Notes: generated from the sequence alone by a model not told the origin. A DNA stretch of 64,000 bases from an uncultured Acidobacteriaceae bacterium (GCA_963813015.1 CAWEXN010000007.1:209526-273525); one strand, 5' to 3'. Shown: positions 5,785 to 22,923, counted from the stretch's first letter. A program made the numbers and translations.

Positions 5785-6776
5785 AGCTCCAGCACGTTGT
5801 CTTCGATCGCCAGCCGCACGTTGCCGTCGGACTTGGCCAGGCGCCGCACTGCTTCTGGCTTGTCCACCTTGGCTCTCAACATCACCAGCGCCACGGGCAC
5901 GCTGCGCCCTGCGCTCTTGATGGTGTCGACAGCGGTCGCGCGATCAATGTTGCAGGCCGACATCAGAATGCGAATGCCGCGTTCCACCAGCTTCGAGTTC
6001 TGCATGTGCACGTTGACCATCAGGTTTTCGTAAACGTAGCCCAGGCGCGTCATGGCGCCGGTGGTGATCATATTCAGAATCATCTTCTGCGCGCTGCCGG
6101 CCTTCATGCGCGTCGATCCCGAGATGACCTCGGCGCCGACATCGGCCACGACGACGATATCGGCTGCTTCCGACAAGGGTGTTGCCTGATTGCAGGTCAC
6201 CGCGGCGGTGTGCGCTCCTCGCGCACGGGCGTAGGCTACGGCCGCGACAACGTAAGGCGTGCGCCCGGAAGCCGAGACACCAACCACAATATCCTTGCGC
6301 GTGGGGCGGCGGCGTGCGATGTCGCGCTGACCCAGCTCTTCGGAGTCTTCATTCACTTCGACGGCGGATGCAAGCGCCTTGGGTCCGCCAGCCATGATGT
6401 ATTGCACTTGACCCGGCGCAGTGGAGTAGGTGGGAGGACATTCCGATGCATCGAGGGCCGCGATGCGCCCGCTGGAACCGGCGCCAACGTAGATCAAACG
6501 GCCGCCATCGCGAAGACATCGCGCAACCTGGTCGATGACGGCGGCGATCTCGGGTATGGCCTTCTTGACTGCCGCGGCGATCTTCGCATCTTCGTGATTG
6601 ATGATGCGAGCGATTTCCAGCGCGGATTTTGTGTCGAGCCCCTGAGACGCCTCGTTCTGGCTCTCAGTGGTGAGTTGCTGAAGCAGGTTGGCCTGGTCGT
6701 TGTGGTGCCCGTTGGATCGGGAGCCGGCCGTTTCCTGCAGCGTCGTCATTGGTAACATCGCGTCAGACCCCAGCAT
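5781..6776 (-). CDS. murQ: N-acetylmuramic acid 6-phosphate etherase
   Basis: GAGSSGRIAALDASECPPTY, EDS, GVSASGRTPYV, EVISGSTRMKAGSAQKMILNM, NSKL motifs; true start may be 6758 or 6749. Confidence 0.93.
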   Translation of the reverse strand: MLGSDAMLPMTTLQETAGSRSNGHHNDQANLLQQLTTESQNEASQGLDTKSALEIARIINHEDAKIAAAVKKAIPEIAAVIDQVARCLRDGGRLIYVGAGSSGRIAALDASECPPTYSTAPGQVQYIMAGGPKALASAVEVNEDSEELGQRDIARRRPTRKDIVVGVSASGRTPYVVAAVAYARARGAHTAAVTCNQATPLSEAADIVVVADVGAEVISGSTRMKAGSAQKMILNMITTGAMTRLGYVYENLMVNVHMQNSKLVERGIRILMSACNIDRATAVDTIKSAGRSVPVALVMLRAKVDKPEAVRRLAKSDGNVRLAIEDNVLEL

Positions 6777-8107: not shown

Positions 8108-9085
8108 ATGTCAAGGCTGCTGAACGGCTATCGGGCAGCAATTCTGGCCTCTTTGGTTGCCGTAGGCCTTGTCTCAACCAATCCGGGCCTCTGCTCCGCT
8201 CAGACCCCAGCCTCGCCCCAGCCCGCCGCAAACACACCCGCACCGGCAGCCACTGAGCCCACGGCATCGCCGGCCGCGAGCCCCGCAACGGAAGCCGCGC
8301 CCCCTCAACCTGGGGCGCCAACCGAAGCGGCGGAGCCCTCTCCCGAGCCTCCCGGCCTGGCAGACACTGCCCCAGCAAGAAAGATCTACACGGTGCCCGC
8401 CGGAACGAAGATTTTGCTGGAGTTGCGCAGCGCCATTAACACAAAGTCGGCCAAAGCTGGCGACGGTGTCTATCTTTCGTCCACCTTTCCTGTCGTGGTG
8501 GGCAACCGGGTCATGATCCCCACTGGCGTTTACGTGCAGGGGGTGGTCGACCGGGTGCAGCGCGGGGGGATGAAGGCTAAGGCACAGCTGGATATGCACT
8601 TTACCTCGATCATCTTCCCCAACGGCTCCGTGGTTGAGATTCCGGGCGTGGTGGACAATGTTCCCGGCTCAAAGAACCAGACCGTGAAGAACAACGACGA
8701 AGGAACCATTGAGCAGAACGGCGATAAAGGCCGGAACGCGGGCCAGGCCGCCGAAATCGCCTTGCCCACAGGTGCCGGCGTTGGCACCATCGGCGGCGCT
8801 GCTTCAGGACATCCAATTGAGGGCGGTCTTGCCGGCCTGGGCGCCGGCCTGGCCACCGTGGGCATTGTTTCGCTGTTCACGCGCAACGCCGACGTCGATA
8901 TTCCCCGTGGCACGCAGGTAGAGATGGTCCTGCAACGTCCGCTGATTTTGGAAGACGAGAATTTGGCCGGAGTTGGCGATCCAGGAACCGCGCCCGCTTT
9001 GGTTCCGGTCGCTAACCAGCAGAAACCCATCACGAATCACCGCCCACGGATCCTTTGCCCACCAGGCGGGCTGGGCTGCGAGTAA
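8108..9085 (+). CDS. Secreted TrbI/VirB10-like domain protein
   Basis: Signal peptide, Pro/Ala-rich linker, VPAGTKILLELRSAINTKSAKAGD...IPTG..V.G.V motif, glycine-zipper helix pair. Confidence 0.7.
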   Translation: MSRLLNGYRAAILASLVAVGLVSTNPGLCSAQTPASPQPAANTPAPAATEPTASPAASPATEAAPPQPGAPTEAAEPSPEPPGLADTAPARKIYTVPAGTKILLELRSAINTKSAKAGDGVYLSSTFPVVVGNRVMIPTGVYVQGVVDRVQRGGMKAKAQLDMHFTSIIFPNGSVVEIPGVVDNVPGSKNQTVKNNDEGTIEQNGDKGRNAGQAAEIALPTGAGVGTIGGAASGHPIEGGLAGLGAGLATVGIVSLFTRNADVDIPRGTQVEMVLQRPLILEDENLAGVGDPGTAPALVPVANQQKPITNHRPRILCPPGGLGCE

Positions 9086-9147
9086 GGCCAGTGATGCGAA
9101 TCGGCTGATCGGATTGCGAAGCAGCCAGCTGGTTTTTTTCTGGAGTT

Positions 9148-9975
9148 CTAAATAAGTTTCGCGTCGGGCGCGACCACACCGGCGCGCATCAGCACGCAGC
9201 TTCCATTCTGGTCGCACCTGTAGTGGACATCGGAACGGTACGATTCCCAAGATACCGCGTTTCCGGCGGCAACCGTTGTTCCCAGAGCAAACGTTCTGCC
9301 GTCGCTGGTTTGAATCGTTCCGGTGGAGGCACTGTAGTCCGAAACCGTCAGCACCCCTTCGGTGTAAAGGCTCGCCGGGGCAGGGGTATCAAGGCTCCAT
9401 TGTGTTGTATTCAGAGCAGTTGGAGGCGCCGACTGATCAGCAACCGGTTCCTGCTGCTCCGGTTTGGCAGAGGGCAGGACCATCATTTTTGCGACCCTGT
9501 ATGTCTTGCCTTCCAGCTTGAGTGTCGCGGGTTTGAGCGCGTCAGGCGTTTTGTTGAGAGCTACCTCGACATTGGATGGCGCGGTTGCAGAACGTGAGGC
9601 GCTCGTTGTAGCAGGGTTCACCTTTGCCGGGCGCAATTCGACGGTCGGGTTGGCAGCGGTATTCGCGGCAACCGGGGTCGAACTGGCAATGGGTGCAGCG
9701 GCAATTGCCGGTTGTGTGGCTTGCGCAGGGCTGGCGTTCGCGGCAAGGTTGGCTGAGGGTGCGGCGCTGGTTTGGACGGAATCACTCGAAGCTGCCACAG
9801 AGTTATAGGAGGCATTGACCAACGCGAGCGTAAGCCCCGTGGCTGTGCCTACCGAGACGCCAAGTGAGACGCAGAGAATGGGCAGGATGAGCCGGTGTAG
9901 CGAAAACGGTGTCGACGCCGGCAAGCGGGATCCGGATACGAAGGCAACTTGGGGGGATTCGACAAGAGTGGCCAT
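9148..9975 (-). CDS. Hypothetical membrane-anchored protein
   Basis: N-terminal TM, Ala/Pro/Thr-rich linker, small C-terminal beta-rich domain with a Cys pair. Confidence 0.65.
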   Translation of the reverse strand: MATLVESPQVAFVSGSRLPASTPFSLHRLILPILCVSLGVSVGTATGLTLALVNASYNSVAASSDSVQTSAAPSANLAANASPAQATQPAIAAAPIASSTPVAANTAANPTVELRPAKVNPATTSASRSATAPSNVEVALNKTPDALKPATLKLEGKTYRVAKMMVLPSAKPEQQEPVADQSAPPTALNTTQWSLDTPAPASLYTEGVLTVSDYSASTGTIQTSDGRTFALGTTVAAGNAVSWESYRSDVHYRCDQNGSCVLMRAGVVAPDAKLI

Positions 9976-10269
9976 GCTCCTCCAATGAATCTAGCCGCTG
10001 AAACATTACTGAGTGAGGGTTCTCGCGTACTGGAGTCATTAAACGATTTTCGCGGGTGCTCAACAATCCACCGAATGGGGCATTACTAAACTGCCATGCG
10101 TGGGGATTTGTCAGGGTAGCCGGAACGACCGCACGTCGGAGTCAGGAAAAATGCAATGCGAGCTTCAGTACCGTTCGGCTTACACCCCATTTTCGACAGA
10201 AGTCTTTACTCCCAGGGTGCCTTGCGAGTGCAAGAAGGCGCAGTTCAGGAGTAATCTGGAACCATAGAG

Positions 10270-11028
10270 ATGAATACCGGCCCCACCGATCCCACACTTC
10301 CTGAACCTGGCCCAAGCCTTCCGCCAGCCTTGAGGCTGCCGCAGGATCGCGCCGCTTTGCCGGCGTCTCAGAACCCCCTGCCTGAGGCGCTGGCAGACCC
10401 TCCCACGTTCGAAAGGGGGGCATCCAGGCCCGCCGCGGACGGATCACTCATTGAGCCGGGTTCCGTGGAATGGTTGTCTCTGATCCCCTCTGAAACGCCT
10501 GCCACGGCTGAGAAGAAATCCGCGGGCGTCATGCTTTGGGTCCGCGATCTGGCCGTCGCCGCGGTCGCCTCCGCCCTCATCATCACATTCCTCTATCAGC
10601 CCGTCCGTGTTGAGGGCACCAGCATGTTGCCGCGCCTCGAGGACAGTGACCGCCTATTCATCAACAAGTTTGCCTATCATTTCGGGGCCATCAACCGCGG
10701 CGACGTGGTTGTCTTTCATTACCCGCGCGACCCCGAGAAGAGCTACATCAAGCGCGTGATTGCGGTGCCCGGCGACGAGCTTCGCATCGATCACGGCCGG
10801 GTTTTCGTCAACGGCAAGGCGATCCGCGAGGCATACGTGCCGCCGGAGTACCGCGATAACCGCTCGGTGGCCGAATTGACGCTGCCGCGAGACGAATACT
10901 ACATGATGGGCGACCACCGCTCGATCTCGTCGGACAGCCGCGATTTCGGCCCGGTTGACCGTTCGCTCATTTATGGCAAAGCCGTCTTTATCTATTGGCC
11001 GGCTCGCGATGCGGGCGTCGTTCACTGA
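10270..11028 (+). CDS. lepB: Signal peptidase I (S26)
   Basis: TM then VEGTSMLP (catalytic Ser), YIKRVI (catalytic Lys), GDHRSISSDSRDFG. Confidence 0.92.
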   Translation: MNTGPTDPTLPEPGPSLPPALRLPQDRAALPASQNPLPEALADPPTFERGASRPAADGSLIEPGSVEWLSLIPSETPATAEKKSAGVMLWVRDLAVAAVASALIITFLYQPVRVEGTSMLPRLEDSDRLFINKFAYHFGAINRGDVVVFHYPRDPEKSYIKRVIAVPGDELRIDHGRVFVNGKAIREAYVPPEYRDNRSVAELTLPRDEYYMMGDHRSISSDSRDFGPVDRSLIYGKAVFIYWPARDAGVVH

Positions 11029-11037
11029 TCAGGATAT

Positions 11038-11081
11038 GTAGCGCCGGCGTCCCGCCGGCTGTCGTGCGGGCGTCCTCCCGC
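11038..11081 (+). repeat. GTAG-type REP-like double hairpin
   Basis: GTAG-C-GCCGGCG-TCC-CGCCGGC then GCGGG-CGTCCT-CCCGC, 10 nt after lepB stop. Confidence 0.6.
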
Positions 11082-11269
11082 GCGCGGATAGTGGAAAACG
11101 GGACTACTTTGCCCCGGACAAACCAACGAAAATCGATTGCTTAACATGCACCCACATTCATAAAAACTTCATTGATTCAAAACAACTTAGACAATTCATA
11201 AATCTCAAGAGATACCCCAAACTCAGGCGGCATCGTTGGCAAATGTCCGGCTCATGCCCCAACATGCGC

Positions 11270-12427
11270 TCAGGGCGTCTTCTTCGTGACGGGTTTATGA
11301 CTGCTGGACGTGCCGGCTGCCGGCGGAGCGGCATCGAGCATCGGATCCGTGACCGTCGAGGTCGCCGGAAAGTCGCTGGCCTTCTCCACCTTGACGTTCA
11401 AGGTCACGTAGCTGACGCTCGGAACAGCGTCAGCGGTGCGGGCATCGGGCGCCGCAGTGGAATTGCGCTCCACAAGATAGCCATTCTGCACGATCAGGTT
11501 GTCCATCTCTTTTTCAAGGTCGTTCTCCTGAGCCTGGGGCAGGAAAACATAACTACCGCTAATCAGTTTCAGTGCATCCGCGGAGATCAAGCTGTTGTCG
11601 GCCCCTTGCTGTGTAACCACCACATCCTGCTGCTCGCTGTTGAGCAGGAAGTTCTCAGCATGAGATTTTTCAAGCAGCCCGTAAAAGGTGTAGAAGTTTT
11701 GCAGGGCAGGCAGCGCGATCCCTGGGAATCCAAGCAGGGGCGTCAGGATTTTGGTTCCCTGGATCATGACGCCAAGAATTTTGTCGAGCAGCGAAGTGGT
11801 CGGCGTGGTGGTAATGTTAACGCTCATATGGCCCGCGCCGTCGTTCAGCACGACATGGCTTATCTGCGGTCCCCCGCTCTGTTGCGGTTGCGATGGCTGT
11901 GACTGACTCCCGGACAACGCGCTCCAGGTCAAATTCTGCTCTGCGGGCAAAGAGCTTGCCTTGTTGGCGAACAGCGTGGCGAGCGCGGCCCAAACAATAG
12001 GTCCCAAAAACTCGCTGCCCGTCACACGCTGGCAAGAAAGATGCAGCTGGGCGAACTTCACCTTTGCAAGCTGGGGCTTATCCTGACTCCCGGCTCGAAA
12101 ACCAGTCAGTTCCAGCGTGACAACCGCATCCTCAGTAAAAGAGGGTAACTCGGTCGGTTTGATGTCCTGCACCCAGCGCAATCCGGTCTTGTCGTCGTAG
12201 AGCGCAATACGGGGGTCACGATCGGGATTGGGAGTGGGACTACTCTCGCCCCGTTGGCTCCCGCTCGAATATAAATTCTTCCAGTACGTCTCGCCTGCGG
12301 TCGGAGCCGAGGAGGATGCCGCGCCGGCCGTCTGGATTGCAGCGACGATTTCAGGATGCGCCAACAATGGCGACAACGCGCCGAAGGTTGCCGATTTGCC
12401 GAGAAAGGAACGCCGGGACAGCGTCAT
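11270..12427 (-). CDS. Tat-exported protein of unknown function
   Basis: MTLSRRSFLGK twin-arginine motif; AGGAG RBS; 385 aa, no family recognised. Confidence 0.8.
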   Translation of the reverse strand: MTLSRRSFLGKSATFGALSPLLAHPEIVAAIQTAGAASSSAPTAGETYWKNLYSSGSQRGESSPTPNPDRDPRIALYDDKTGLRWVQDIKPTELPSFTEDAVVTLELTGFRAGSQDKPQLAKVKFAQLHLSCQRVTGSEFLGPIVWAALATLFANKASSLPAEQNLTWSALSGSQSQPSQPQQSGGPQISHVVLNDGAGHMSVNITTTPTTSLLDKILGVMIQGTKILTPLLGFPGIALPALQNFYTFYGLLEKSHAENFLLNSEQQDVVVTQQGADNSLISADALKLISGSYVFLPQAQENDLEKEMDNLIVQNGYLVERNSTAAPDARTADAVPSVSYVTLNVKVEKASDFPATSTVTDPMLDAAPPAAGTSSSHKPVTKKTP

Positions 12428-12629
12428 GGAGTGAATGCTCCTTTGAGAATTCTGGGGGACCGAATGAGACGAGTGTTAGGGCTAAGGGCCTCAAGCCGGG
12501 GGAATGAAAACCTTATACCATGTTTGTCGCCAGGCAATAAATCAATCCTGCGCACTCGCACTTCCCCAACGGGATTGAGATAAAATCCGGATCAGGTTTT
12601 CGCTCCTTCCCCCCAATAGAACTTTTCGC

Positions 12630-15600
12630 ATGACGCACTCATCTATCCTTTTGCGAGGGATGCCCGTGCCTGGACCAACCGTATTGTTTGGCGCTCGATC
12701 ATCGAAGACCGGTTTGTGCGCAATCCTGGTGATTGTCTGTTCCTGCCCGGGCCAGTTTATTCATCCTCAGACTGCTTCCCATATGCAATCGTCCTCAGCA
12801 GGCGACCTGGCTTCGCTGTTTACGCGAATCGTTCCCGATGACTGCCATGCAGCTTCTGACAGCAATCTAGCCGAATTGAAATCAGCATTGGCCGACTTTC
12901 GAATTCATAAAAATCGCGAAGGCGAGCTACGGGCGCTCACGTTGCTCGGTCAACTATACGAGCAGTCCGGAGAGTATAAGGCGGCCCTTCCTTACTTGCA
13001 GAGTGTCTTAAGCCTTCTAAGCGATACCGAGGGAAAAGCCAAGGTCCTCACAATGACCGCGGATGCTCTCACGCAAGTAGGCCAACCTGATGCCGCAAAG
13101 CGCGATGCATTGGAAGCGCTGAAGGTCAGCACGAAACTCGGCGATGTGGCGGACGAGGCATCGGCGTTGCGGGCTCAGGCAGAGGCCGTTGCCGCCTCCT
13201 CTCCGAACGAAGCGATGCCGTACCTTCAAAAGGCGCTCCCACTCAGCATTCAGGCTAGCGATCTCAGGACACAGGCGACGATTCTGACCGACGAGGCGGA
13301 GATTGTCCAGGATTCCGCCAGCCCATTTGAGATATTTCGTCAGGCCCTTGCAATCGAAGAACAGGTTCACGATTGCCGGGACAAGATCGACACCTTGACG
13401 AACCTTGCGACTCTCGAATTCGATCGGGGCCAGATTCGAAATGGGCTGGCCGATTTCGAGAACGCATTGGCGCTCGAGCGCCAGGTTGGAAACAGCACTT
13501 CTGAGGCCGATACGCTGCATCAGCTGGGATATTTCCACTGGGAGCTTGGTGATCTGGGTGAATCGCTCTCCTACTTCAATCAAGCTCTCCAACTCAAACA
13601 ACAGGCGGGCGATGTCGCATCGGCAGCGGAGACGATGGGCGCGATGGCAGGCGTATACCGCGACACCGGGTGGCCGGCCGTGGCCCTCCGCTCTTATCTG
13701 CGGGTTCTGCTTCTATATCAGCACACAGGCGATGTGCCGTGGCAGGTCACGACCTTAAATAACCTGGGCATGATTGAGGCGGACCTGCGCCAAAAAACGC
13801 AGGCCCGAAACTACTACACAAAGTCGATCGAGCTAGCGCCGAAAGCCGGTGACCCCGTTACGCCAGCCTATTCTGCGTGGGGAATTGGAGAACTCGAACA
13901 GGCCGATGCGCTCCCACGCTACTTCCAGTCGGTCCGATTGGCCAGGGAGTTCGAACATGCCGATCTGGAAGGCGAAGTTGATTCCTCATTGATGGATCAT
14001 TTTCGCTCACACCACCAGCCCAATGTGGCCATCTTTTTCGGCAAGAGGGCCGTTGACCGGTTTCAGTCTTTGCTCAGGAGCATGGGTGACATGAGCGAGG
14101 ACCTCACGAGCTCCTTTCTGCAAAGGAAATCCGCAACCTACCGGACTCTGGCCGAACTCCTGATTGACCAAGGAAGGTTCATCGAGGCGCAGCAGGTTCT
14201 CGATCTGCTGAAGATCCAGCAGTATTCCGATTACGTAGGGGAACAGCCGACCGAGCTTGGCGAGACCCTCGTCCGCAGCCCGCGCGAAACTCCCTTGCAG
14301 ATTGAACTTGAAAAGCACCTCGCGCAGTGGGTGACCCTGGACAAGGCGCTGCGAGCGGCGCAGACCGCCGAACCTCGGCAATCGTCTCTGATCCTCAGAG
14401 CTCGAGAGGCTGTCCACACCGAACAGGTGAGTTTTGACGCCTTCCTTCAGGATCTTTACAAGCAGCTCCAAGCCCCGGAAGGCCCCGCAGTCGGCGTGAA
14501 GAGCGTCACGGGCGCAGAACTGCCTCTCGAAACCCTCCTTGCCAGGAATCCGGACGCAGTCGCTCTCTACACATTGGAAGGCGCCGATCGCTATCGCGTG
14601 ATGGTCATAAGCCATGCGGGGCGATTTGCCCGGTCTTATCCAATTGCGCAGAACGCACTGGATGAAAAGTGCCGGGAATTCCTCAACCTCGTCAGTCGCC
14701 GGGACACCGATTCCAGTGCTTCCGCACAGGATTTATTTGGCATCCTGTTCGCGCCGGTCCAAAAGGATTTGCAATCGCTGGGTGCGAAAACACTTGTCTG
14801 GTACCTGGACGGCTCGCTGCGCTATATCCCCATCGCTGCTCTGATGAACTCGGACACAAAACGGTATCTCGTAGATGATTACAACGTCGTGAACTTTACG
14901 CCTCTGAGTCATTCGACAGAGTCGCCGCCGGAATTGAAGGGTGCACGGGCCATTGGAATGGGCATCAGCCGTAAGTACTTCAACGACCTAGGCCCCTTAC
15001 TAAATGTGAAAGAGGAATTGGACTCCGTCATTTCAGACCCAACCGTGCCCGACTCTCATGGCGTCCTACCAGGGACCATTTTGATCGACGGGCAATTCAC
15101 CGAGAAAGCATTGGAAGAGAATCTGAAGTCGCAGGACGTCGTTCACATCGCGAGCCACTTCGTTTTGAAGCCGGGAAATGACGACCTCTCCTTCCTCCTT
15201 TTGGCTGGCAAGGACCAGGATCACTCCGGATATAGGTACTCCATGGCCGATTTTGAGAAAAGCACTGACCTGCATCTGGAAGGAACGAAGTTGCTCACGT
15301 TGTCGGCATGCCAGACCGGCGCCGCCAATGAGCGGGACACTTGCTTTCAAAACGATGAGTCCTCGGTGAAGACCGCAAAGTGCCAGGCGGGCAATGCCAA
15401 TCAGCGAGAGAACGGCGTGGTGATGGAGAGTATGAGTGAAGTCGTGCTCGAGAAAGGCGCTGAAGCAGTTGTCTCTTCGCTCTGGAGCGTGGACGATGAA
15501 AGTACAAGTGCATTGATGGCGGACTTTTATCAGCGCTGGGCAGGCTCGGGCGGAACAGTTTCCAAGGCGGAGGCGCTCAGGCAAGCGGAGCTCGACTTGC

Positions 15601-15746
15601 TGCACGGCAAAGCCATTCCTCAGCCGGCCGCCGGCCGCCGCGGCGTTCTTGCAGTCGAGAACGAACCCCGCAAACCGGTCAACCCTGCCGGATTCTCGCT
15701 CCCCTATTACTGGGCGCCTTTTGTCTTGACGGGAAACTGGCAATAA
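12630..15746 (+). CDS. TPR-repeat + CHAT (caspase/separase-like) protease
   Basis: About 8 TPR-like helical repeats; CHAT motifs YLDGSLRYIP, HIASHF (catalytic His), LTLSACQTG (catalytic Cys), SLWSVDD, ALRQAEL, PYYWAPF. Confidence 0.9.
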   Translation: MTHSSILLRGMPVPGPTVLFGARSSKTGLCAILVIVCSCPGQFIHPQTASHMQSSSAGDLASLFTRIVPDDCHAASDSNLAELKSALADFRIHKNREGELRALTLLGQLYEQSGEYKAALPYLQSVLSLLSDTEGKAKVLTMTADALTQVGQPDAAKRDALEALKVSTKLGDVADEASALRAQAEAVAASSPNEAMPYLQKALPLSIQASDLRTQATILTDEAEIVQDSASPFEIFRQALAIEEQVHDCRDKIDTLTNLATLEFDRGQIRNGLADFENALALERQVGNSTSEADTLHQLGYFHWELGDLGESLSYFNQALQLKQQAGDVASAAETMGAMAGVYRDTGWPAVALRSYLRVLLLYQHTGDVPWQVTTLNNLGMIEADLRQKTQARNYYTKSIELAPKAGDPVTPAYSAWGIGELEQADALPRYFQSVRLAREFEHADLEGEVDSSLMDHFRSHHQPNVAIFFGKRAVDRFQSLLRSMGDMSEDLTSSFLQRKSATYRTLAELLIDQGRFIEAQQVLDLLKIQQYSDYVGEQPTELGETLVRSPRETPLQIELEKHLAQWVTLDKALRAAQTAEPRQSSLILRAREAVHTEQVSFDAFLQDLYKQLQAPEGPAVGVKSVTGAELPLETLLARNPDAVALYTLEGADRYRVMVISHAGRFARSYPIAQNALDEKCREFLNLVSRRDTDSSASAQDLFGILFAPVQKDLQSLGAKTLVWYLDGSLRYIPIAALMNSDTKRYLVDDYNVVNFTPLSHSTESPPELKGARAIGMGISRKYFNDLGPLLNVKEELDSVISDPTVPDSHGVLPGTILIDGQFTEKALEENLKSQDVVHIASHFVLKPGNDDLSFLLLAGKDQDHSGYRYSMADFEKSTDLHLEGTKLLTLSACQTGAANERDTCFQNDESSVKTAKCQAGNANQRENGVVMESMSEVVLEKGAEAVVSSLWSVDDESTSALMADFYQRWAGSGGTVSKAEALRQAELDLLHGKAIPQPAAGRRGVLAVENEPRKPVNPAGFSLPYYWAPFVLTGNWQ

Positions 15747-15807
15747 TTGCCGACAACTTGCATGGCTTGTGACAGCAAGAAAGATCGAAAGTGGATTGAA
15801 AAATCTC

Positions 15808-15836
15808 TTGAAACGCAGAAAACGATCTGCTAAATT
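15808..15836 (+). promoter_or_regulatory. Sigma70-type promoter for the GloVer-repeat gene
   Basis: TTGAAA-N17-TAAATT with TG extended -10. Confidence 0.55.
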
Positions 15837-15914
15837 CTGTTCAAACCGACCCCCCCGGATAATCTTCCTCTTATCGCATACTCAGGCTTCATATTTCTCG
15901 TCAACCGGTGTCCC

Positions 15915-18900
15915 ATGAATCGGCTCGCGATCCGTTTGTGTATTGGCTCCATGTTGGTTATTTCGGGAGCATTGCTTTCCGACGCCCAAACCTCCTCCGT
16001 GTTGCACTCTTTTACAGGCACCGCGACCGATGGAGACGCGCCAAATTCTCTGATTGAGGCTCAGGATGGCAATTACTACGGTACGACCGCATTTGGCGGC
16101 AGCGCTGGCTCATGCACAGATAGCAATAACAACACCGTCGGATGTGGAACTGTCTTCAAGCTGAGCAGTGGAACGGTGACAGTGCTATACAGCTTTAGCG
16201 GCGGGGCCGATGGGGGCCAGCCGAACGGGATCATCCAGGGAACGGACGGGAATCTTTACGGTGTAGCGGCCTTTGGCGGATCGAGTCAGGGCAACGGCAA
16301 ATGCTTGGCTGGAACAGTTGATACAGGATGCGGAACGATTTTCGAGATCGCGCCTTCCAGTCCGCCTGCCGCTGGAAAGCTAGTTCCGATCTACAACTTC
16401 ACCGGCGGCAGCGATGGGGCTTACCCGAATCCACTGACCATGGGAACGGGAGGGGTGCTCTATGGATCAGCACTGGATTGCAGCCAATGCTCGACGAGCG
16501 ACGCCTACGGTGTTCTGTTTAGCTTTCAGCCCGGCCGGCGCCAGTGGAGTCACCCCAACGATCCTTTCCACGTTTGGCACTTCCAAAGGGCAAAATGGAT
16601 CGAGCTTCGCGTATCCAAACGCTTTGGTCCAGGCAAGTGCTCAGATCCTGTACGGCACTGCGCAACTCGGAGGAGATACCGCATTCACAACGGGCTGCTT
16701 ATTTGTGGGATCGAATTCGTTTGGATGCGGTGGGGTCTTTTCTTACAATCTTTCAACGACGAAAGAGAGTGACCTGTGTCTTTTTGGCGAAAGCGCCAAC
16801 GTTTCGACGAGTTCCAGCGTATCAAGCGCTGCTTTGCCGCTGGTAAATGGCAAAGGCGGTCCTTCACCGCAAACGATCGTGAAGCAGTCGTCCGGCAGGT
16901 TCCCGTCTGATGGCGCACCCTGGACCTTTCAAAGTTCTCCGATGACGATCGCAATGGGAGGCGACGGGAACATCTACGGAGCGGCACCTCCGGCGTGTGT
17001 CTCCGGAGAGAGCTCGTCGTCGGTGAGTTACACGGCGACTCCCGCCTGTACCGGCGCAACGACATACGATGCAGTCGCCCCGGCAACAGTCTTCCAGTGC
17101 ATTCCTTCTTCAACGACGCCAACGCTGAACACGGTCTACGAGTTTGGAGCGACCAACAACAATGGCAACGTCATCGATGGTGGCGGTTCTCTTCAGGGCC
17201 TGCTGCTGGCCAGCGATGGCAACTACTACGGAACGAGCGGCGTTTACACCTTTAATTTGACGCCGACGCAAATGTCGGCTTTCACGTCTTCCGGCACCAC
17301 ATCGCCGCTGTCATCTCTTTCGCCGTTCTATTCCACACTTACGTCTGACACTGCGAACTTCAGTCCGAATTCGATGATCCAGGGAAGCAACGGAAGCTTC
17401 TACGGGACAACGGCGACCGGTGGAGCGAGCAGTGACGGCGCCATTTTTGAAGTGACTAATTCGTTGAACCCTCCGGTGCAGCTAAGTTTCACTGACTCGT
17501 CCATCACGCTGGGGAGCCCGGCCACTCTGGATTGGGCGGTCCCGAATGCCTATTCGTTGACCGCAGAGCAGTGCTATGCGTTTGTGCAGAACAACGCATC
17601 GGGGGCCGGTACCTGGTCCGGACTCCAGGCCGGCTCGCTCTCAGAGGGTGCATATAGTGGCTCATCGACGATCACCCCGACCTCGCCGGGCACCTTCACG
17701 TACGCGCTCACCTGCGGAGGAATCGTTTCAGGCTTCGCCATGCTGCAGGTCAACGAGCCACAGGCCGCGACAATGTCCACCCCCACGCCGGGCAGTACGC
17801 TGTCCGCAGCTTCAACCACCTTCACCTGGAATGCAGGGTCCGGTGGAGTGACGGGCTACTACCTGTGGATTGGCACATCGGCCGGCACTGCCAATCTGGC
17901 GAACATCGGTCTCTCCAGCACCACCACCCAAGCGACCGTAACTCTGCCCACTAACGGAGCCACGATCTACGTCCAGCTCTGGACACAGTTCAGCGGCGGC
18001 AACTTGCTCTCCAACAGCTACACCTACACCGAAGACACCATTACCGCAGCTACCATGAGCACTCCCACGCCGGGCAGCACGCTGACCGCAGCTTCGACCA
18101 CGTTCAACTGGAACGCAGGCGTTGGCGGGGTGACAGGCTACTACCTGTGGATTGGCACATCGGTCGGCACTTCCAATCTGGCGAACATCGGTTTCTCCAG
18201 CAGCACCACCCAAGCGACCGTAACTCTGCCCACCAATGGAGCCAAGATCTACGTCGAGCTCTGGACAGCATACCCCGGCGGAAGTTTGCTCTCCAACAGC
18301 TACACCTATACCGAAGACACCATTACCGCAGCTACCATGAGCACTCCCACGCCGGGCAACCCGCTGACCGCAGCTTCGACCACGTTCAACTGGAACGCCG
18401 GCGTTGGCGGGGTGACGGGCTACTACCTGTGGATTGGCACATCGGTCGGCACTGCCAATCTGGTGAACATCGGTTTCTCCAGCAGCACCACCCAAGCGAC
18501 CGTAACTCTGCCCACCAATGGTGCCCCGATCTACGTGGAGCTCTGGACAAAGCTCAGCAGCGGGACCTTACTCTCCAACAGCTACACCTACACGGAATTC
18601 ACGCAATCCGCAGCCACGATCACCAGCCCGATCAACGGCAGTACGCTGACTTCAGCTTCAACCACCTTCACCTGGAATGCAGGGTCCGGTGGAGTGACGG
18701 GCTACTACCTGTGGATTGGCACATCGGCCGGCACTGCCAATCTGGCGAACATCGGTTTCTCCAGCACCACCACCCAAGCGACCGTAACTCTGCCCACCAA
18801 TGGTGCCCCGATCTACGTGGAGCTCTGGACAAAGCTCAGCAGCGGGACCTTACTCTCCAACAGCTACACCTACACGGAATTCACGCAATCCGCAGCCACG

Positions 18901-19452
18901 ATCACCAGCCCGATCAACGGCAGTACGCTGACTTCAGCTTCAACCACCTTCACCTGGAATGCAGGGTCCGGTGGAGTGACGGGCTACTACCTGTGGATTG
19001 GCACATCGGCCGGCACTGCCAATCTGGCGAACATCGGTTTCTCCAGCACCACCACCCAAGCGACCGTAACTCTGCCCACCAATGGTGCCCCGATCTACGT
19101 GGAGCTCTGGACACAGTTCAGCGGCGGCAGCTTGCTTTCCAACAGCTACACCTACACGGAATTCACGCAATCCGCAGCCACGATCACCAGCCCGATCAAC
19201 GGCAGTACGCTGACTTCAGCTTCAACCACCTTCACCTGGAATGCAGGGTCCGGTGGAGTGACGGGCTACTACCTGTGGATTGGCACATCGGCCGGCACTG
19301 CCAATCTGGCGAACATCGGTTTCTCCAGCACCACCACCCAAGCGACCGTAATTCTGCCCACTAACGGAGCCACGATCTACGTCCAGCTCTGGACACAGTT
19401 CAGCGGCGGCAACTTGCTCTCCAACAGCTACGCCTACACCGAGGCCCCATAG
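15915..19452 (+). CDS. Large secreted protein: GloVer (Gloeo_Verruco-type) repeats, Ig-like domain, six C-terminal 94-aa repeats (one frameshift near 16531)
   Basis: Signal peptide; repeated (N/L)YGTTxxGG...GT(V/I)F units; frames join at SFQP/AGASGV on removing one C of CCC. Confidence 0.85.
17764..19449 (+). repeat. Six tandem 282-bp in-frame repeats
   Basis: Units start at 17764, 18046, 18328, 18610, 18892, 19174; each encodes ...FTWNAG.GGVTGYYLWIGTS...IYV.LWT...LSNSYTYT. Confidence 0.95.
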
Positions 19453-19518
19453 CGAACCAAACACCTCGCGCGGCGGGCCATTGCGCGGTGCTCTGGAGCG
19501 CTCGAGAACCGGCAGCTT

Positions 19519-20724
19519 TTACTCCGCCCTTGGCAGCTTCAGCGCCTTCAGCTCTACCAGGTTCTTTTCGATCATTCGATTGCGCTGGGCAACGCAGGCG
19601 TGACTACGCAGCGGATCAGCCGGTGTATTCAGCACATAGTCCACAAGCTTGTCGACCGTGCTAGTAGCTACATGAATGCGCGTGTCGGATGAAGCGTAAT
19701 AGATAAAGACTTCGCCGTTCTTGCCCTCGATCCAGCCGTTGCTAAAGACGACATTCGAGACATCGCCGACCCGCTCGCCACCCTCGGGAGCGATGAAGTA
19801 GCCAGCCGGCTTGTGCGTCACCACCCAGGGGCGCTCCAACTCGGTCAAGAACAGATAGAGCACATAGCGCAACCCCGCGGCCGTGTTGCGTACACCGTGC
19901 GCCAACTGCAACCAGCCCTTGCCGGTCTTGATGGGAGCTGGTCCGAGGCCGTTCTTGACCTCTTGAATGGTGTGATATTCGCGGTTATCGACGATGGTTT
20001 CTTCGTCCACGACGGCATTGTCGATGCTCGACGAGAGCCCCCAGCCGATGCCGCCGCCTTTGCCCGCCTGAATAAAGTCGTCCTGAGGACGGGTATAGAA
20101 GGCATATTTGCCGTCGACAAAATTCGGGTGAAGCACCACGTTGCGCTGCTGCGGCGACTTGGACCTCAGGTCGGGCAGACGCTTCCAGGTCTTCATATCC
20201 CTGGTGCGCACAATGCCGCACTGCGCGATCGCCGAAGAGGTGTCCGACTCAGGCGCCTTTGGGTCCTTGCGCTCGGTGCAAAAGAGCCCATAGATCCAGC
20301 CGTCTTCGTGCTTGACGACGCGCATGTCGTAGACGTTGATGTCCCGATCTTCGGTCTCGGGCAAAAGAATGGGAAAATTCCAGAAACGAAAGTTGTCGAT
20401 GCCGTTCGGGCTCTCAGCGACGGCAAAAAACGACTTTCGGTCCGAACCCTCGACGCGCACCACCAGCAGATACTTGCCTTCGTGCAAGATCGCGCCGGCG
20501 TTGAAAGTGGCGTTGACCCCAATCCGTTCCATCAGGTAAGGATTGGTCTTCTGGTCGAGGTCATAGCGCCAGGTGATCGGCGCGTGTGCAGCAGTCACGA
20601 TTGGGAAATCATAGCGATCAAAGATACCGTTGCCGTTGGTCGACTTGCGATTGCGGCGGGTGATCAACCGCTCTTGCTCCTTGAGCAGATCTTGAACGCG
20701 CTTCTTGAATGCTGCTTGGATCAT
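19519..20724 (-). CDS. GH130 beta-mannoside phosphorylase (mannosylglucose phosphorylase-like)
   Basis: [55 protein letters not shown]. Confidence 0.9.
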
Positions 20725-20852
20725 CTTGCTCTCTGGGGTTTGAATTCCTGCGCTCGATGGTCAAAGAAACGCAACCCCTTTGTCAGATTAACGTATTCGA
20801 TCAGGCCGTTTACCCAAGGCGTTGCGTCGACCTGCTGTTCGAGATCAGCTCG

Positions 20853-20933
20853 AGACTTGCGGCAATTACACCGCTTCCACTGAGGGCCACGACGCTTCGG
20901 ACAATCCACAGAGTGCCGTGTAAACACTGATAT
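20853..20933 (-). pseudogene. Remnant resembling the N-terminal arm of a tyrosine integrase
   Basis: ISVFTRHSVDCPKRRGPQWKRCNCRKS resembles the RH..C...W.RC.C.K N-terminus recalled from acidobacterial integrases; no catalytic domain follows. Confidence 0.4.
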
Positions 20934-21087
20934 AGTCGTTGTGGTAGCAACTGTTTCATCGAAGGGCTTGGTGGGCAACCTCTTCCACAAATGTTCCGCA
21001 AAATCGAGGCTCGGTTTTGATGGATATTGATAAGAAAGAGGATGGCGCACTTTTGCCGTACGATTGAATCCACTCTTCGGAGAGGCG

Positions 21088-22241
21088 ATGCAGGCGATCC
21101 TCGCGCTCGAAGACGGGCGCATCTTCCGCGGGCACGGCCACGGACACCCAGGCGAATGTCAGGGCGAAGTCGTTTTTAATACTTCTCTCACCGGTTACCA
21201 GGAAATCGCCACCGACCCATCCTACGCCGGGCAAATTGTCGTTCTCACCAACCCCCAAATTGGCAATTACGGTACCAATCGCGCCGACAATGAGGCTGCG
21301 CGTCCTTATATTGAAGGCCTGATTGTCCGTGAGTTCTCCGCCATCAGCTCCAACTGGCGTTCCGAGCAGGTCACGGACGAGTACATGGAGCGCTACTCCG
21401 TGCCCGTGCTCGCCGAGATCGACACCCGCGCCCTGGTTCGCCACCTCCGCGACCGCGGCGTGATGCGCGGCGTGATCTCGACGACAGAGCCGAACCCGGA
21501 CGTGCTGGTTGCGAAGGCCAAGGCCATCCGCAAGATGGAGGGTACCGATCTGGCGCGCGTGGTCTCGACCAAGAGCCAGCTACGAGTTCGACGCCTCCGA
21601 TCCGCGCAATCAGAGTGGGGAGCCGCTGCTGGACGATGGTTTTCTCAAGCAAGAGAAGCACTTGCAGAAAATATTGAATGTAGTAGCTTATCGATTTTGG
21701 CATTAAGCAGAACATTCTGCGCATGTTAGCTCGTGACGGTTGCCGCGTGACCGTGGTTCCGGCAGAGACGACGGCTGAAGATGTGCTGGCGCTCAAGCCC
21801 GACGGCGTCTTCCTGTCGAACGGCCCCGGCGACCCCGAGCCGGTCGATTATGCCGTCCGCGCTATCCGCAACATGTTGGGCCGCGTGCCAGTGTTCGGTA
21901 TCTGCCTGGGCCACCAGCTCTGCGGCCTGGCTCTCGGCGGACGCACCTACAAGCTCAAGTTCGGCCACCACGGCGGCAATCATCCGGTTAAGAACAATGC
22001 CACCGGCAAGGTTGAGATCACGGCCCACAACCACAACTTCGCCGTCGATCCCGACTCCATCAACGCCAACGAGGTCGAGTTGACCCACGTTGACTTGAAC
22101 GATCAGACGCTCGAAGGCCTGCGCCACAAGACGCTGCCGCTCTTCAGCGTGCAATACCACCCTGAAGCCGCTCCCGGCCCGCACGATTCGCATTATCTGT
22201 TCCGCGACTTCCGGCAGATGATGGAGGAGTGGAAGGGATGA
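21088..22241 (+). CDS. carA: Carbamoyl-phosphate synthase small chain (two +1 frameshifts near 21574 and 21692)
   Basis: [53 protein letters not shown]; three frames join into one protein. Confidence 0.93.
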
Positions 22242-22272
22242 CCCTCGCGATGCTCGACAGATTCAGCATTTC

Positions 22273-22305
22273 AAAACAGCGGGGCTTTTGGCTCCGCTGT
22301 TTTTT
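22273..22305 (+). terminator. Intrinsic terminator after carA
   Basis: AAAACAGCGG-GGCTTTTGGCT-CCGCTGTTTT stem-loop ending in a T run. Confidence 0.75.
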
Positions 22306-22330
22306 GGAATAAAGAGCAAGACCTTTATGT

Positions 22331-22398
22331 GAAGGGTACGGGCTTTAGCCCGTACATTGAACCAGCCACAGAATCGGGGCTTTAGCCCCTGAGGGAAT
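22331..22398 (+). repeat. Left REP-like element of the RAYT (two hairpins)
   Basis: GAAGG-GTACGGGC-TTTA-GCCCGTAC ... GGGGC-TTTA-GCCCC-TGAGG. Confidence 0.85.
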
Positions 22399-22401
22399 AG
22401 G

Positions 22402-22923
22402 ATGCGTCCCAGGCGAGAGACAATCCGGAGCAGCGAAGGCTCTTACTTCATCTCGACGCAGACAGCGGACCGAAGGCCTTTCTTCCGCCACCACCGATGG
22501 GCGCGCCTGATGCTGGATGTGCTAAGACACTATGACGGAAACGGCTACATGCTCCACGCCTTTGTCATCATGCCCGATCACCTGCATCTGCTGATCACTC
22601 CATCCGAGTCTGTTGAAAGATCTGTTCAACTGTTCAAAGGCGGATTCTCTTACCGGGCCAAACGAGAGCTCGATTGGAAGGGCAACATCTGGCAACCGGG
22701 ATTCACGGACCATCGCATTCGCGACGAGGAAGATTGGAAGCGGCATCTGGAATACATCCGGTCGAATCCGGTTGAAGGCCGACTCGTCACGGATTCTGTT
22801 CTCTATGAATTCATCGGCCTGCCCAGCATTGAATTTCCTCAGGGGCTTAAGCCCATCGAGACAGCTAGCCTTAATGTACGGGCTGAAGCCCGTACCCTTC
22901 AAAACCGGGCACACAACAACTAG
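22402..22923 (+). mobile_element. REP-associated tyrosine transposase (RAYT, Y1/IS200-like HUH)
   Basis: YFIS, VIMPDHLHLL (HUH), WQPGFTDHRIR, YIRSNPV (catalytic Tyr). Confidence 0.9.
22835..22900 (-). repeat. Right REP-like element, inverted copy of 22331-22398
   Basis: CCTCA-GGGGC-TTAA-GCCC ... GTACGGGC-TGAA-GCCCGTAC-CCTTC; overlaps RAYT 3' end. Confidence 0.85.

What the first reader, a model, noticed from the sequence alone, without database searches (positions are those of the whole stretch)
11270..19452. Candidate extracytoplasmic caspase-like protease system: Tat protein / TPR-CHAT protease / GloVer-repeat surface protein
Seen: three large non-housekeeping genes between lepB and the GH130 gene. 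A Tat-signal protein is divergent from a TPR-CHAT protein with intact His (HIASH) and Cys (LSAC), followed on the same strand by a secreted repeat protein with its own sigma70-like promoter. Established: CHAT domains are caspase/separase-fold proteases that in several bacterial systems (Craspase, protease-gasdermin loci) are TPR-gated and cleave a neighbouring partner. Inference: no CRISPR or gasdermin is here and both partners are exported, so this may be an undescribed envelope-level sensor-protease-substrate module. The CHAT N-terminus has a hydrophobic Cys-containing stretch (GLCAILVIVCSC) that may be an export or lipoprotein signal.
Basis: partly seen in the sequence, partly recalled or inferred. 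Interest (0 to 1): 0.7.

Follow-up and report, generated by a model that had tools for sequence, protein, structure and literature searches.

The report
Exported caspase-like protease cassette, Tat partner
A soil acidobacterium carries a conserved, movable three-gene cassette (a folded-export protein of an unnamed family, a secreted caspase-like protease and a surface repeat protein), and that unnamed family sits beside caspase-like protease genes almost wherever it occurs, pointing to an undescribed proteolytic system working outside the cytoplasm.

Summary
The Tat motif, the TPR and CHAT domains with His843 and Cys894, and the GloVer repeats are all confirmed. As assembled, the GloVer gene is split by a 1-nt insertion near 16527. 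This is probably an assembly error, because carA nearby is also frame-broken.

- The trio recurs in at least 12 loci from Acidobacteriaceae genomes and metagenomes, in two arrangements and in different flanks.
- In 5 of 8 genomes, the only GloVer gene or genes are the ones beside the CHAT gene.
- In the window, the trio lies in a 10-kb insertion between lepB and carA.

The core is the Tat protein plus exported caspase-fold proteases.
- Paralogues sit in operons with one or two signal-peptide C14 caspases, with or without a TPR-CHAT.
- 5-6 of 7 informative distant members also neighbour C14 or CHAT genes.

The Tat family has 339 clusters at 50% identity. It has no Pfam, NCBIfam, PADLOC or PDB relative. 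A confident model (pTM 0.81) matches no solved fold, so it is not a gasdermin.

Cleavage itself is untested. The most likely reading is a periplasmic protease-target module. This is a new variant of the protease-plus-partner kind.

The parts
11031..21060 (.). 10.0-kb insertion relative to a close relative (G011), between lepB and carA. It holds the cassette, a GH130 gene and a small ORF.
   Evidence: blastn: window 8293-11030 matches L044 2-2730, and window 21061-22307 matches L044 2776-4020. tblastn. GC is 54-57.5% against 59-62% in the flanks. No boundary repeats were found.
11270..12427 (-). Tat-exported 385-aa protein of an unnamed family ('Tat385'). It is beta-rich, with a variable loop at about residues 155-188 and a Ser/Lys-rich tail at 352-385.
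12338..12427 (-). Twin-arginine signal peptide (SRRSFLGK plus a mildly hydrophobic stretch ending around VAA).
   Evidence: RR is invariant in alignment A3. The motif is present in 74 of 85 representatives. The profile hits only Tat signals in PDB and Pfam. TatC is present in the genome.
12428..12629 (.). Divergent intergenic region, 202 bp, between the Tat gene and the CHAT gene.
   Evidence: No promoter-like match was found here.
12630..15746 (+). Secreted TPR-CHAT protease, 1038 aa.
   Evidence: Pfam CHAT E 1.4e-49 plus TPR families. Orthologues were found in all related loci.
12630..12770 (+). Sec-type signal peptide of the CHAT protein (hydrophobic core GLCAILVIVCSC, ending IHPQ).
   Evidence: A hydrophobic stretch followed by H-A/P-Q or A-Q is conserved in 17 orthologues and paralogues. 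The cysteines are not conserved.
12912..14220 (+). TPR repeat region.
   Evidence: TPR_12, TPR_1, TPR_2, TPR_7, TPR_MalT. The closest solved sequences are the TPRs of LGN/Pins.
14718..15737 (+). CHAT (caspase-fold) domain with catalytic His843 (nt 15156-15158) and Cys894 (nt 15309-15311). A 27-aa two-Cys insert follows the catalytic Cys (nt 15327-15407).
   Evidence: His and Cys are invariant in 15 aligned loci. The insert is present only in the clade linked to a GloVer gene.
15808..15836 (+). Promoter-like hexamers (TTGAAA-17-TAAATT, TG extended) upstream of the GloVer gene.
   Evidence: The number of such matches in the region is not above chance.
15915..19452 (+). GloVer-repeat surface protein gene, split by a 1-nt insertion near 16527. 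Read through, it encodes 1178 aa: a signal peptide, a GloVer repeat region (about 16032-17466), one Ig-like segment and six 94-aa repeats. It has no C-terminal anchor.
17791..19442 (+). Tandem array of 282 bp x 5.9 copies (92% matches) that encodes the 94-aa repeats.
19519..20724 (-). GH130 gene. It lies inside the insertion but is not part of the conserved cassette.
   Evidence: It is absent from the other cassette loci and is present elsewhere in only 2 of 25 relatives.

Best explanation
This is a conserved, horizontally mobile cassette for proteolysis outside the cytoplasm.

Its core is a Tat-exported, non-enzymatic, beta-rich protein of an unnamed family. That protein is paired with one or more Sec-exported caspase-fold (clan CD) proteases. 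Here the protease is a TPR-CHAT with an intact His/Cys dyad. In this Terracidiphilus-like clade a third member is added: a fast-evolving GloVer beta-propeller surface protein.

Proposed mechanism (inferred):
1. All products meet in the periplasm or envelope.
2. The TPR array holds the protease in check or selects its target.
3. The protease then cleaves the Tat protein, which is the constant partner across all cassette types, and possibly also the GloVer protein. This changes the activity or location of the target.

Shown: cassette conservation, export signals, intact active sites, and the family-wide link between the Tat family and caspase-fold proteases.

Inferred: who cleaves whom, and what the cleaved product does.
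For: (1) Co-location of the trio.
- Tat385, TPR-CHAT and GloVer are adjacent in the window and in L022, L023, L017/L024, L033, L025, L026 and L014, where the Tat gene is divergent from the other two.
- They are also adjacent in L031, L027, L028 and L019, where all three are in tandem.
- Tat identity across these loci runs from 94% down to 66%, and the flanks are unrelated.

(2) GloVer genes are rare.
- The only GloVer gene in G000, G461, G462 and G463, and both copies in G464, are the ones next to the CHAT gene.

(3) The Tat family is patchy but linked to caspase-fold proteases.
- It occurs in 11 of 61 relatives and in 7 of 401 genomes of the phylum.
- In 8 of those 11 relatives it lies within 4 kb of a TPR-CHAT.
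- Paralogues at 27-30% identity lie in several operon types: C14-Tat-Y-C14-TPR-CHAT (L009 in the same genome, L010, L011), Tat-Y-C14 (L038, L039), C14<>Tat-CHAT (L040, L041) and C14<>Tat-Y-C14 (L042).

(4) Distant representatives, from 9 look-ups.
- WD40-C14 (L035); CHAT plus trypsin plus C14 (L048); C14 immediately downstream (L049, L050); a DUF4384 fragment upstream (L047); C14 4.5 kb away (L045).
- One had no protease nearby (L037) and two contigs were too short.

(5) Every protease has a signal peptide and an intact dyad.

(6) The Tat protein does not look like an enzyme.
- It has no conserved catalytic-type residues.
- It has a variable low-confidence loop and a basic disordered tail.

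(7) The cassette lies in a 10-kb insertion.
Against: - No experiment or co-fold shows an interaction or cleavage.
- The Tat protein could be a regulator, inhibitor or adaptor rather than a target.
- One distant member (L037) has no caspase-fold protease within 8 kb.
- In this assembly the GloVer gene is frame-broken and lacks the C-terminal anchor that its orthologues carry. The third component may therefore be defective here.
- The fold of the Tat protein gives no functional clue.
Confidence: 0.5

Rival explanations
1. Surface-protein processing module. The periplasmic CHAT trims, matures or releases the GloVer surface protein, as LapG releases LapA or PorU processes T9SS cargo. The Tat protein acts as a regulator or adaptor for the protease, not as its substrate.
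For: - The GloVer gene is always immediately downstream of the CHAT gene in the clade and is otherwise rare in these genomes.
- A 27-aa two-Cys insert next to the catalytic Cys occurs only in CHATs that have a GloVer neighbour.
- GloVer orthologues carry a lipo-invert C-terminal anchor and evolve fast, as exposed proteins do.
- Clan CD enzymes include known sorting peptidases (established knowledge). The CHAT in L048 also hits Peptidase_C25.
Against: - The Tat-protease pairing persists in many loci that have no GloVer gene. GloVer therefore cannot be the general substrate.
- The lipo-invert tail occurs in 15-23 proteins per genome, while the cassette is present in only about 18% of the genus. 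The CHAT is therefore not the general tail-processing enzyme.
- The window's GloVer copy has no tail at all.
Confidence: 0.22
2. The Tat protein is a dedicated inhibitor or chaperone (a pro-domain supplied in trans). It keeps the exported caspase-fold proteases silent until they reach the periplasm. The real substrates lie elsewhere.
For: - The Tat protein is the constant partner of interchangeable proteases.
- It has no catalytic residues.
- Tat export delivers it already folded (established knowledge of the Tat pathway).
Against: - The proteases use Sec, so they are exported unfolded and separately. A partner folded in the cytoplasm therefore could not protect the cytoplasm from them.
- A 330-aa mature protein with a disordered loop and tail is large for an inhibitor.
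- There is no similarity to known protease inhibitors.
Confidence: 0.15
3. The three genes are unrelated neighbours that happen to lie together in an accessory island.
For: - The island also holds an unrelated GH130 gene.
- No shared regulation has been shown, and promoter matches are at chance level.
Against: - The trio is kept through rearrangement and in unrelated flanks in at least 12 loci.
- With about 3 CHAT genes and one GloVer gene in 4.6 Mb, chance adjacency is of the order of 1% per locus.
Confidence: 0.02

Closest known systems
Bacterial gasdermin-protease operons (Johnson et al., bioRxiv 10.1101/2021.06.07.447441)
   Same: - A small non-enzymatic partner is encoded next to one to several caspase-like proteases (C14, CHAT, sometimes trypsin). 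These are often fused to TPR or WD40 repeats.
- The same protease repertoire surrounds the Tat family.
- The partner is constant while the proteases vary.
   Different: - The partner is not a gasdermin. A confident model has no match to any solved structure.
- It carries a Tat signal, and all the proteases carry signal peptides. The chemistry therefore happens outside the cytoplasm.
- There is no PADLOC match.
Craspase (type III-E CRISPR Cas7-11 with TPR-CHAT/Csx29 cleaving Csx30)
   Same: A TPR-CHAT architecture with a His/Cys dyad and a neighbouring protein as the presumed substrate.
   Different: - There are no cas genes and no CRISPR array.
- The protein has a secretion signal.
- The CHAT domain shows no sequence-level match to any solved chain; only the TPRs match, to LGN/Pins.
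LapG/LapA adhesin release and PorU (C25) cargo processing
   Same: A periplasmic cysteine protease acts on a large repeat-rich surface protein encoded nearby. PorU shares clan CD with CHAT (established knowledge).
   Different: - The protease family is different, and there is no LapD-like or T9SS component here.
- The Tat partner has no counterpart in those systems.
- The pairing with the surface protein is confined to one clade.
Prokaryotic orthocaspases/metacaspases with DUF4384 (reviewed in PMC3501461 and PMC7475262)
   Same: The C14a and C14b proteins of the paralogous operons are C14 caspase homologues with SHG...DSCHSG dyads. One carries DUF4384.
   Different: The full-text searches run here found no paper that links these proteases to a Tat-exported partner family.

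Membership tests
CHAT domain proteases (PF12770, clan CD) | Match to the family model above its curated cut-off | tested here: met
   169.5 bits against a cut-off of 24, residues 697-1036.
CHAT domain proteases (PF12770, clan CD) | Catalytic His and Cys present | tested here: met
   HIASH (His843) and LSAC (Cys894) are invariant in 15 aligned orthologues and paralogues.
CHAT domain proteases (PF12770, clan CD) | Proteolytic activity | not testable with these tools
   Needs an enzyme assay.
Tat (twin-arginine) substrates | S/T-R-R-x-F-L-K motif followed by a mildly hydrophobic stretch at the N-terminus | tested here: met
   SRRSFLGK in the window protein. RR is invariant. The motif is present in 74 of 85 representatives. 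Pfam TAT_signal hits 16 members, and the profile matches Tat signals in PDB.
Tat (twin-arginine) substrates | Tat translocase encoded in the genome | tested here: met
   TatC at 232.6 bits, G000:C8:606252-606878.
Tat (twin-arginine) substrates | Export that depends on TatABC | not testable with these tools
   Needs a tat mutant or a reporter fusion.
Bacterial gasdermin-protease systems | Partner protein has the gasdermin fold | tested here: not met
   A model with pLDDT 82.9 and pTM 0.81 has no PDB match below E 0.06, and no gasdermin appears among the 50 best listed matches. The profile search of PDB sequences found nothing.
Bacterial gasdermin-protease systems | Cytoplasmic partner and protease | tested here: not met
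   Tat and Sec signals are conserved.
Craspase (type III-E CRISPR) | Adjacent Cas7-11/gRAMP gene and CRISPR array | tested here: not met
   The only array in the region is the coding 282-bp repeat. The neighbours are lepB, GH130 and carA.
GloVer choice-of-anchor repeat proteins (TIGR03803) | Repeat model above its cut-off | tested here: met
   66.4 bits (5' ORF) and 49.1 bits (3' ORF) against a cut-off of 44.
Lipo-invert C-terminal anchor (NF058595) | C-terminal hydrophobic helix, Cys-Gly-rich linker and small beta domain | tested here: not met
   The window copy ends after the tandem repeats, 66 bp before the GH130 gene. Orthologues in L017, L023, L025, L026, L028, L031, L033 and L019 do have it.
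Known anti-phage defence systems (PADLOC-DB 2.0) | Match of the components to a system model | tested here: not met
   Only generic TPR and caspase models hit. The Tat proteins and the Y protein hit nothing.

The most novel reading that the evidence does not exclude
The Tat family is a latent envelope-acting effector, a periplasmic counterpart of the gasdermin-caspase death module. It is folded in the cytoplasm and exported by Tat so that it stays inert. It is then unleashed by cleavage when the TPR- or WD40-gated caspase-fold proteases sense a signal in the envelope. In this clade the fast-evolving GloVer surface protein may relay that signal, for example phage contact or envelope damage.
Probability: 0.15. 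Interest if true: 0.85.

Novelty: new variant of a known kind. Interest (0 to 1): 0.66.

Why it matters
Caspase-like proteases with repeat sensors are known in bacteria as cytoplasmic triggers, as in gasdermin systems and Craspase. This finding points to a recurrent version that is entirely exported. It is built around a protein family of 339 clusters that has no name, no solved fold and no annotation, and whose one consistent feature is a caspase-fold protease next door.

That gives a concrete, testable pair for asking what bacterial caspase homologues do in the envelope: one protease and one candidate target, both of which can be expressed in E. coli. It also gives a handle for annotating several hundred 'hypothetical' Tat substrates.

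Tried and rejected
- **Gasdermin or any known fold for the Tat protein.** The second, from 98 sequences, was confident but unmatched in PDB. In BFVD there was only a borderline hit to an uncharacterised Hokovirus protein.
- **Lipoprotein signal on the CHAT protein.** The cysteines are not conserved among orthologues.
- **CHAT as the dedicated sorting enzyme for lipo-invert tails.** The tail is common (15-23 hits per genome), the cassette is patchy, and the window's GloVer copy lacks the tail.
- **GloVer adjacency as chance in a genome rich in such genes.** It is the only GloVer gene in the genome.
- **Frameshift as evidence of a pseudogene or programmed shift.** carA has two breaks as well. 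L017 has an independent 1-nt deletion 9 nt away, in the same CCGGCCGGC stretch, which fits systematic long-read error.
- **Integration signatures.** No boundary repeats or other such signatures were found at the island ends.
- **Locus search with the broad alignment.** The search for related loci with alignment A1 failed for lack of a conserved stretch, so it was repeated with A2.
- **Literature.** No paper joins CHAT or caspases with twin-arginine export, nor describes this cassette.
- **Defence-system library.** There is no system-level match in PADLOC.
Full report
**1. What is in the sequence**

ORF listing and translation show three genes between lepB (Peptidase_S26, 10270-11028) and a GH130 gene (19519-20724, minus strand).

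- *Gene 1 (11270-12427, minus strand)* encodes 385 aa starting MTLSRRSFLGK. It has no Pfam, NCBIfam or PADLOC match.
- *Gene 2 (12630-15746, plus strand)* is divergent from gene 1 across 202 bp. It encodes 1038 aa with many TPR hits and a CHAT domain (E 1.4e-49, residues 697-1036). The motifs HIASH (His843) and LSAC (Cys894) are present.
- *Gene 3* carries GloVer repeats (TIGR03803), but in this assembly it is two overlapping ORFs in different frames. ORF 15915-16772 holds the signal peptide and the first repeats. ORF 16462-19452 holds further GloVer repeats, an Ig-like segment and six 94-aa repeats.
- The 94-aa repeats are encoded by a 282-bp x 5.9 tandem array.

**2. The frame break in gene 3**

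- Against the orthologue in L022 (86-90% identical, one open frame), the window has one extra C near 16527: TTTCAGCCCGG against TTT-AGCCCGG.
- Removing it gives an open 1178-aa frame.
- Another MAG (L017/L024) has an independent 1-nt deletion 9 nt further on, in the same CCGGCCGGC stretch.
- carA, 4.5 kb downstream and a housekeeping gene, is split into three frames by two 1-nt indels relative to the intact gene of a close relative.
- The assembly therefore carries indel errors, and the GloVer break is most simply another one.

**3. The cassette lies in an insertion**

- A genome of the same genus that lacks the Tat family (G011, locus L044) aligns with window 8293-11030 and then directly with 21061-22307.
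- Window 11031-21060 (10.0 kb) is therefore an insertion between lepB and carA.
- Its GC content is 54-57.5%, against 59-62% around it.
- No terminal repeats, tRNA gene or integrase were seen.
- In L022 the homology with the window stops about 35 bp beyond the Tat gene's stop codon and continues into unrelated DNA. The cassette therefore moves as a unit.

**4. The trio is conserved**

A word-indexed protein search found 77 relatives of the Tat protein, none of them annotated. Loci were fetched from GTDB genomes, metagenome contigs and relatives and screened by tblastn with all components.

- Every locus with a Tat protein at 66% identity or more, and with enough flank, has the TPR-CHAT gene next to it and a GloVer gene immediately downstream of the CHAT gene.
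- The Tat gene is divergent from the other two in the window and in L022, L023, L017/L024, L033, L025, L026 and L014.
- All three genes are in tandem in L031, L027, L028 and L019.
- The flanking genes differ from locus to locus.
- The GloVer protein diverges much faster than the others: 33-40% identity where the Tat protein keeps 66-72% and the CHAT domain 63-71%.
- GloVer genes are rare in these genomes. The one beside the CHAT is the only one in G000, G461, G462 and G463, and both copies in G464 sit beside the two cassette copies. G460, G465 and G016 have one or two more. Chance adjacency is thus excluded.
- The orthologous GloVer proteins end in a hydrophobic helix, a Cys-Gly-rich linker and a small beta domain. 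This matches NCBIfam's 'lipo-invert' C-terminal anchor. The window copy lacks it.
- The anchor itself is common, with 15-23 hits per genome, so it is not specific to the cassette.

**5. The core is the Tat protein plus caspase-fold proteases**

- The Tat family is patchy: 11 of 61 relatives and 7 of 401 genomes sampled across the phylum.
- In 8 of those 11 relatives it lies within 4 kb of a TPR-CHAT.
- Slightly more distant members (51-64% identity) keep the pair without a GloVer gene. The order is CHAT then Tat in L012, L029 and L030, and Tat then CHAT in L020/L021 and L013/L034.
- A paralogous clade (27-30% identity), including a second copy in the window's own genome (G000:C1, locus L009), lies in a five-gene operon. 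The genes in order are:
  - a C14 caspase with DUF4384 (about 800 aa);
  - the Tat protein;
  - an unknown protein of about 500 aa;
  - a C14 caspase (about 415 aa);
  - a TPR-CHAT.
- Other Acidobacteriota show Tat-Y-C14, C14<>Tat-CHAT and C14<>Tat-Y-C14.
- All of these proteases have N-terminal signal peptides and intact dyads, SHG...DSCHSG or HIASH...LSAC.
- An exhaustive profile search found 339 clusters at 50% identity, 111 of them at E<=1e-30. Nine distant representatives were looked up:

| Locus | Neighbour of the Tat-family gene |
|---|---|
| L035 | 1574-aa WD40-C14 protein |
| L048 | CHAT plus trypsin-like plus C14 |
| L049, L050 | C14 immediately downstream |
| L047 | DUF4384-bearing fragment upstream |
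| L045 | C14 4.5 kb away |
| L037 | no caspase-fold protease within 8 kb |
| L036, L046 | contigs too short to judge |

- The link is therefore family-wide. The type of protease varies while the Tat protein stays constant.

**6. Export**

- The twin-arginine motif is invariant in the 98-sequence alignment and present in 74 of 85 full-length representatives.
- The family profile matches only Tat signal peptides in PDB (NapA, NosZ, NirK precursors) and only Pfam TAT_signal.
- TatC is encoded in the genome.
- The CHAT N-terminus is hydrophobic in all orthologues and is followed by H-A/P-Q or A-Q, but its cysteines are not conserved. It is a signal peptide, not a lipobox.
- The GloVer-linked CHATs share a 27-aa insert with two conserved cysteines directly after the catalytic Cys, and a conserved Cys near the mature N-terminus. 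This fits an oxidising compartment, although that reading is an inference.

**7. The Tat protein**

- With 98 sequences AlphaFold2 gives pLDDT 82.9 and pTM 0.81. The model is a beta-rich body with a few helices, a low-confidence variable loop (about 155-188) and a disordered Ser/Gly/Lys-rich tail (352-385).
- Foldseek finds no solved structure below E 0.06. In BFVD there is only a borderline uncharacterised Hokovirus protein (E 1.8e-4, TM 0.30-0.35).
- Conserved positions are mostly Gly, Pro, Trp, Tyr and Leu, plus one Arg/Asp pair. There is no conserved Cys, His or Ser pattern. An enzyme is therefore unlikely.
- It is not a gasdermin.

**8. Interpretation**

- *Shown:* a mobile, conserved cassette; all products exported; active sites intact; a family-wide association of a new Tat-substrate family with caspase-fold proteases.
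- *Inferred:* the proteases act on the Tat protein. The argument is by analogy with gasdermin operons, where a constant non-enzymatic partner is flanked by variable C14, CHAT and trypsin proteases fused to TPR, WD40 or NACHT domains. Here, however, the action would take place in the periplasm.
- Rivals that remain open: the GloVer protein is the substrate, as in adhesin release of the LapG kind; or the Tat protein is an inhibitor or adaptor.
- The idea that the CHAT is the sorting enzyme for lipo-invert tails was rejected.
- Full-text searches found no description of such a system.

**9. Verdict**

- The mechanism is still inference.
- This is a new variant of the 'repeat-gated caspase-like protease plus neighbouring partner' kind. 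It is distinguished by full extracytoplasmic location and by a partner family of unknown fold.

Noticed in passing
window 21064-22241: carA is split into three reading frames by two 1-nt indels relative to the intact gene in G011 (L044). One break is near VVSTK|SYEF and one is at NVVAY|DFGIK. This indicates indel errors in the assembly.
   Followed up: partly
G000:C1:43650-53410 (locus L009 1654-11412): The same genome has a paralogous five-gene operon: secreted C14 caspase with DUF4384, Tat-family protein, unknown 500-aa secreted protein, secreted C14 caspase, and secreted TPR-CHAT.
   Followed up: partly
window 15327-15407 (CHAT residues 900-926): A 27-aa insert with two conserved cysteines lies directly after the catalytic Cys. 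It is present only in the CHATs that have a GloVer neighbour. It sits where caspases have their inter-subunit linker.
   Followed up: partly
L017/L024 about 5825-5834: An independent 1-nt deletion breaks the GloVer orthologue 9 nt from the window's insertion, in the same CCGGCCGGC stretch. It could be a systematic long-read error at a methylated motif or a real hotspot.
   Followed up: no
L013/L034 (G022:C18:9151-10172): The Tat-family gene next to a TPR-CHAT is interrupted by stop codons (TGA, TAA). This is either a decayed copy or an assembly error.
   Followed up: no
L027 and L031 (both in G464): One MAG carries two near-identical copies of the whole cassette on two contigs. In L027 the CHAT and GloVer genes are frame-broken.
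   Followed up: no
window 22308-22911 against L044 4021-4466: The carA-carB spacer differs between the window and G011. It is the site of the REP/RAYT element noted by another first-stage finding.
   Followed up: no
model m9175f8704b0e (Tat protein): The only structural hit with E<0.001 in any library is an uncharacterised Hokovirus HKV1 protein (A0A1V0SF49, TM 0.30-0.35, 11% identity).
   Followed up: no
L020/L021 14992-15315: A PIN-domain gene and a surface protein of more than 2100 aa (Fn3_assoc/CHB_HEX_C) follow the Tat-CHAT pair, where the closer clade has the GloVer gene.
   Followed up: no
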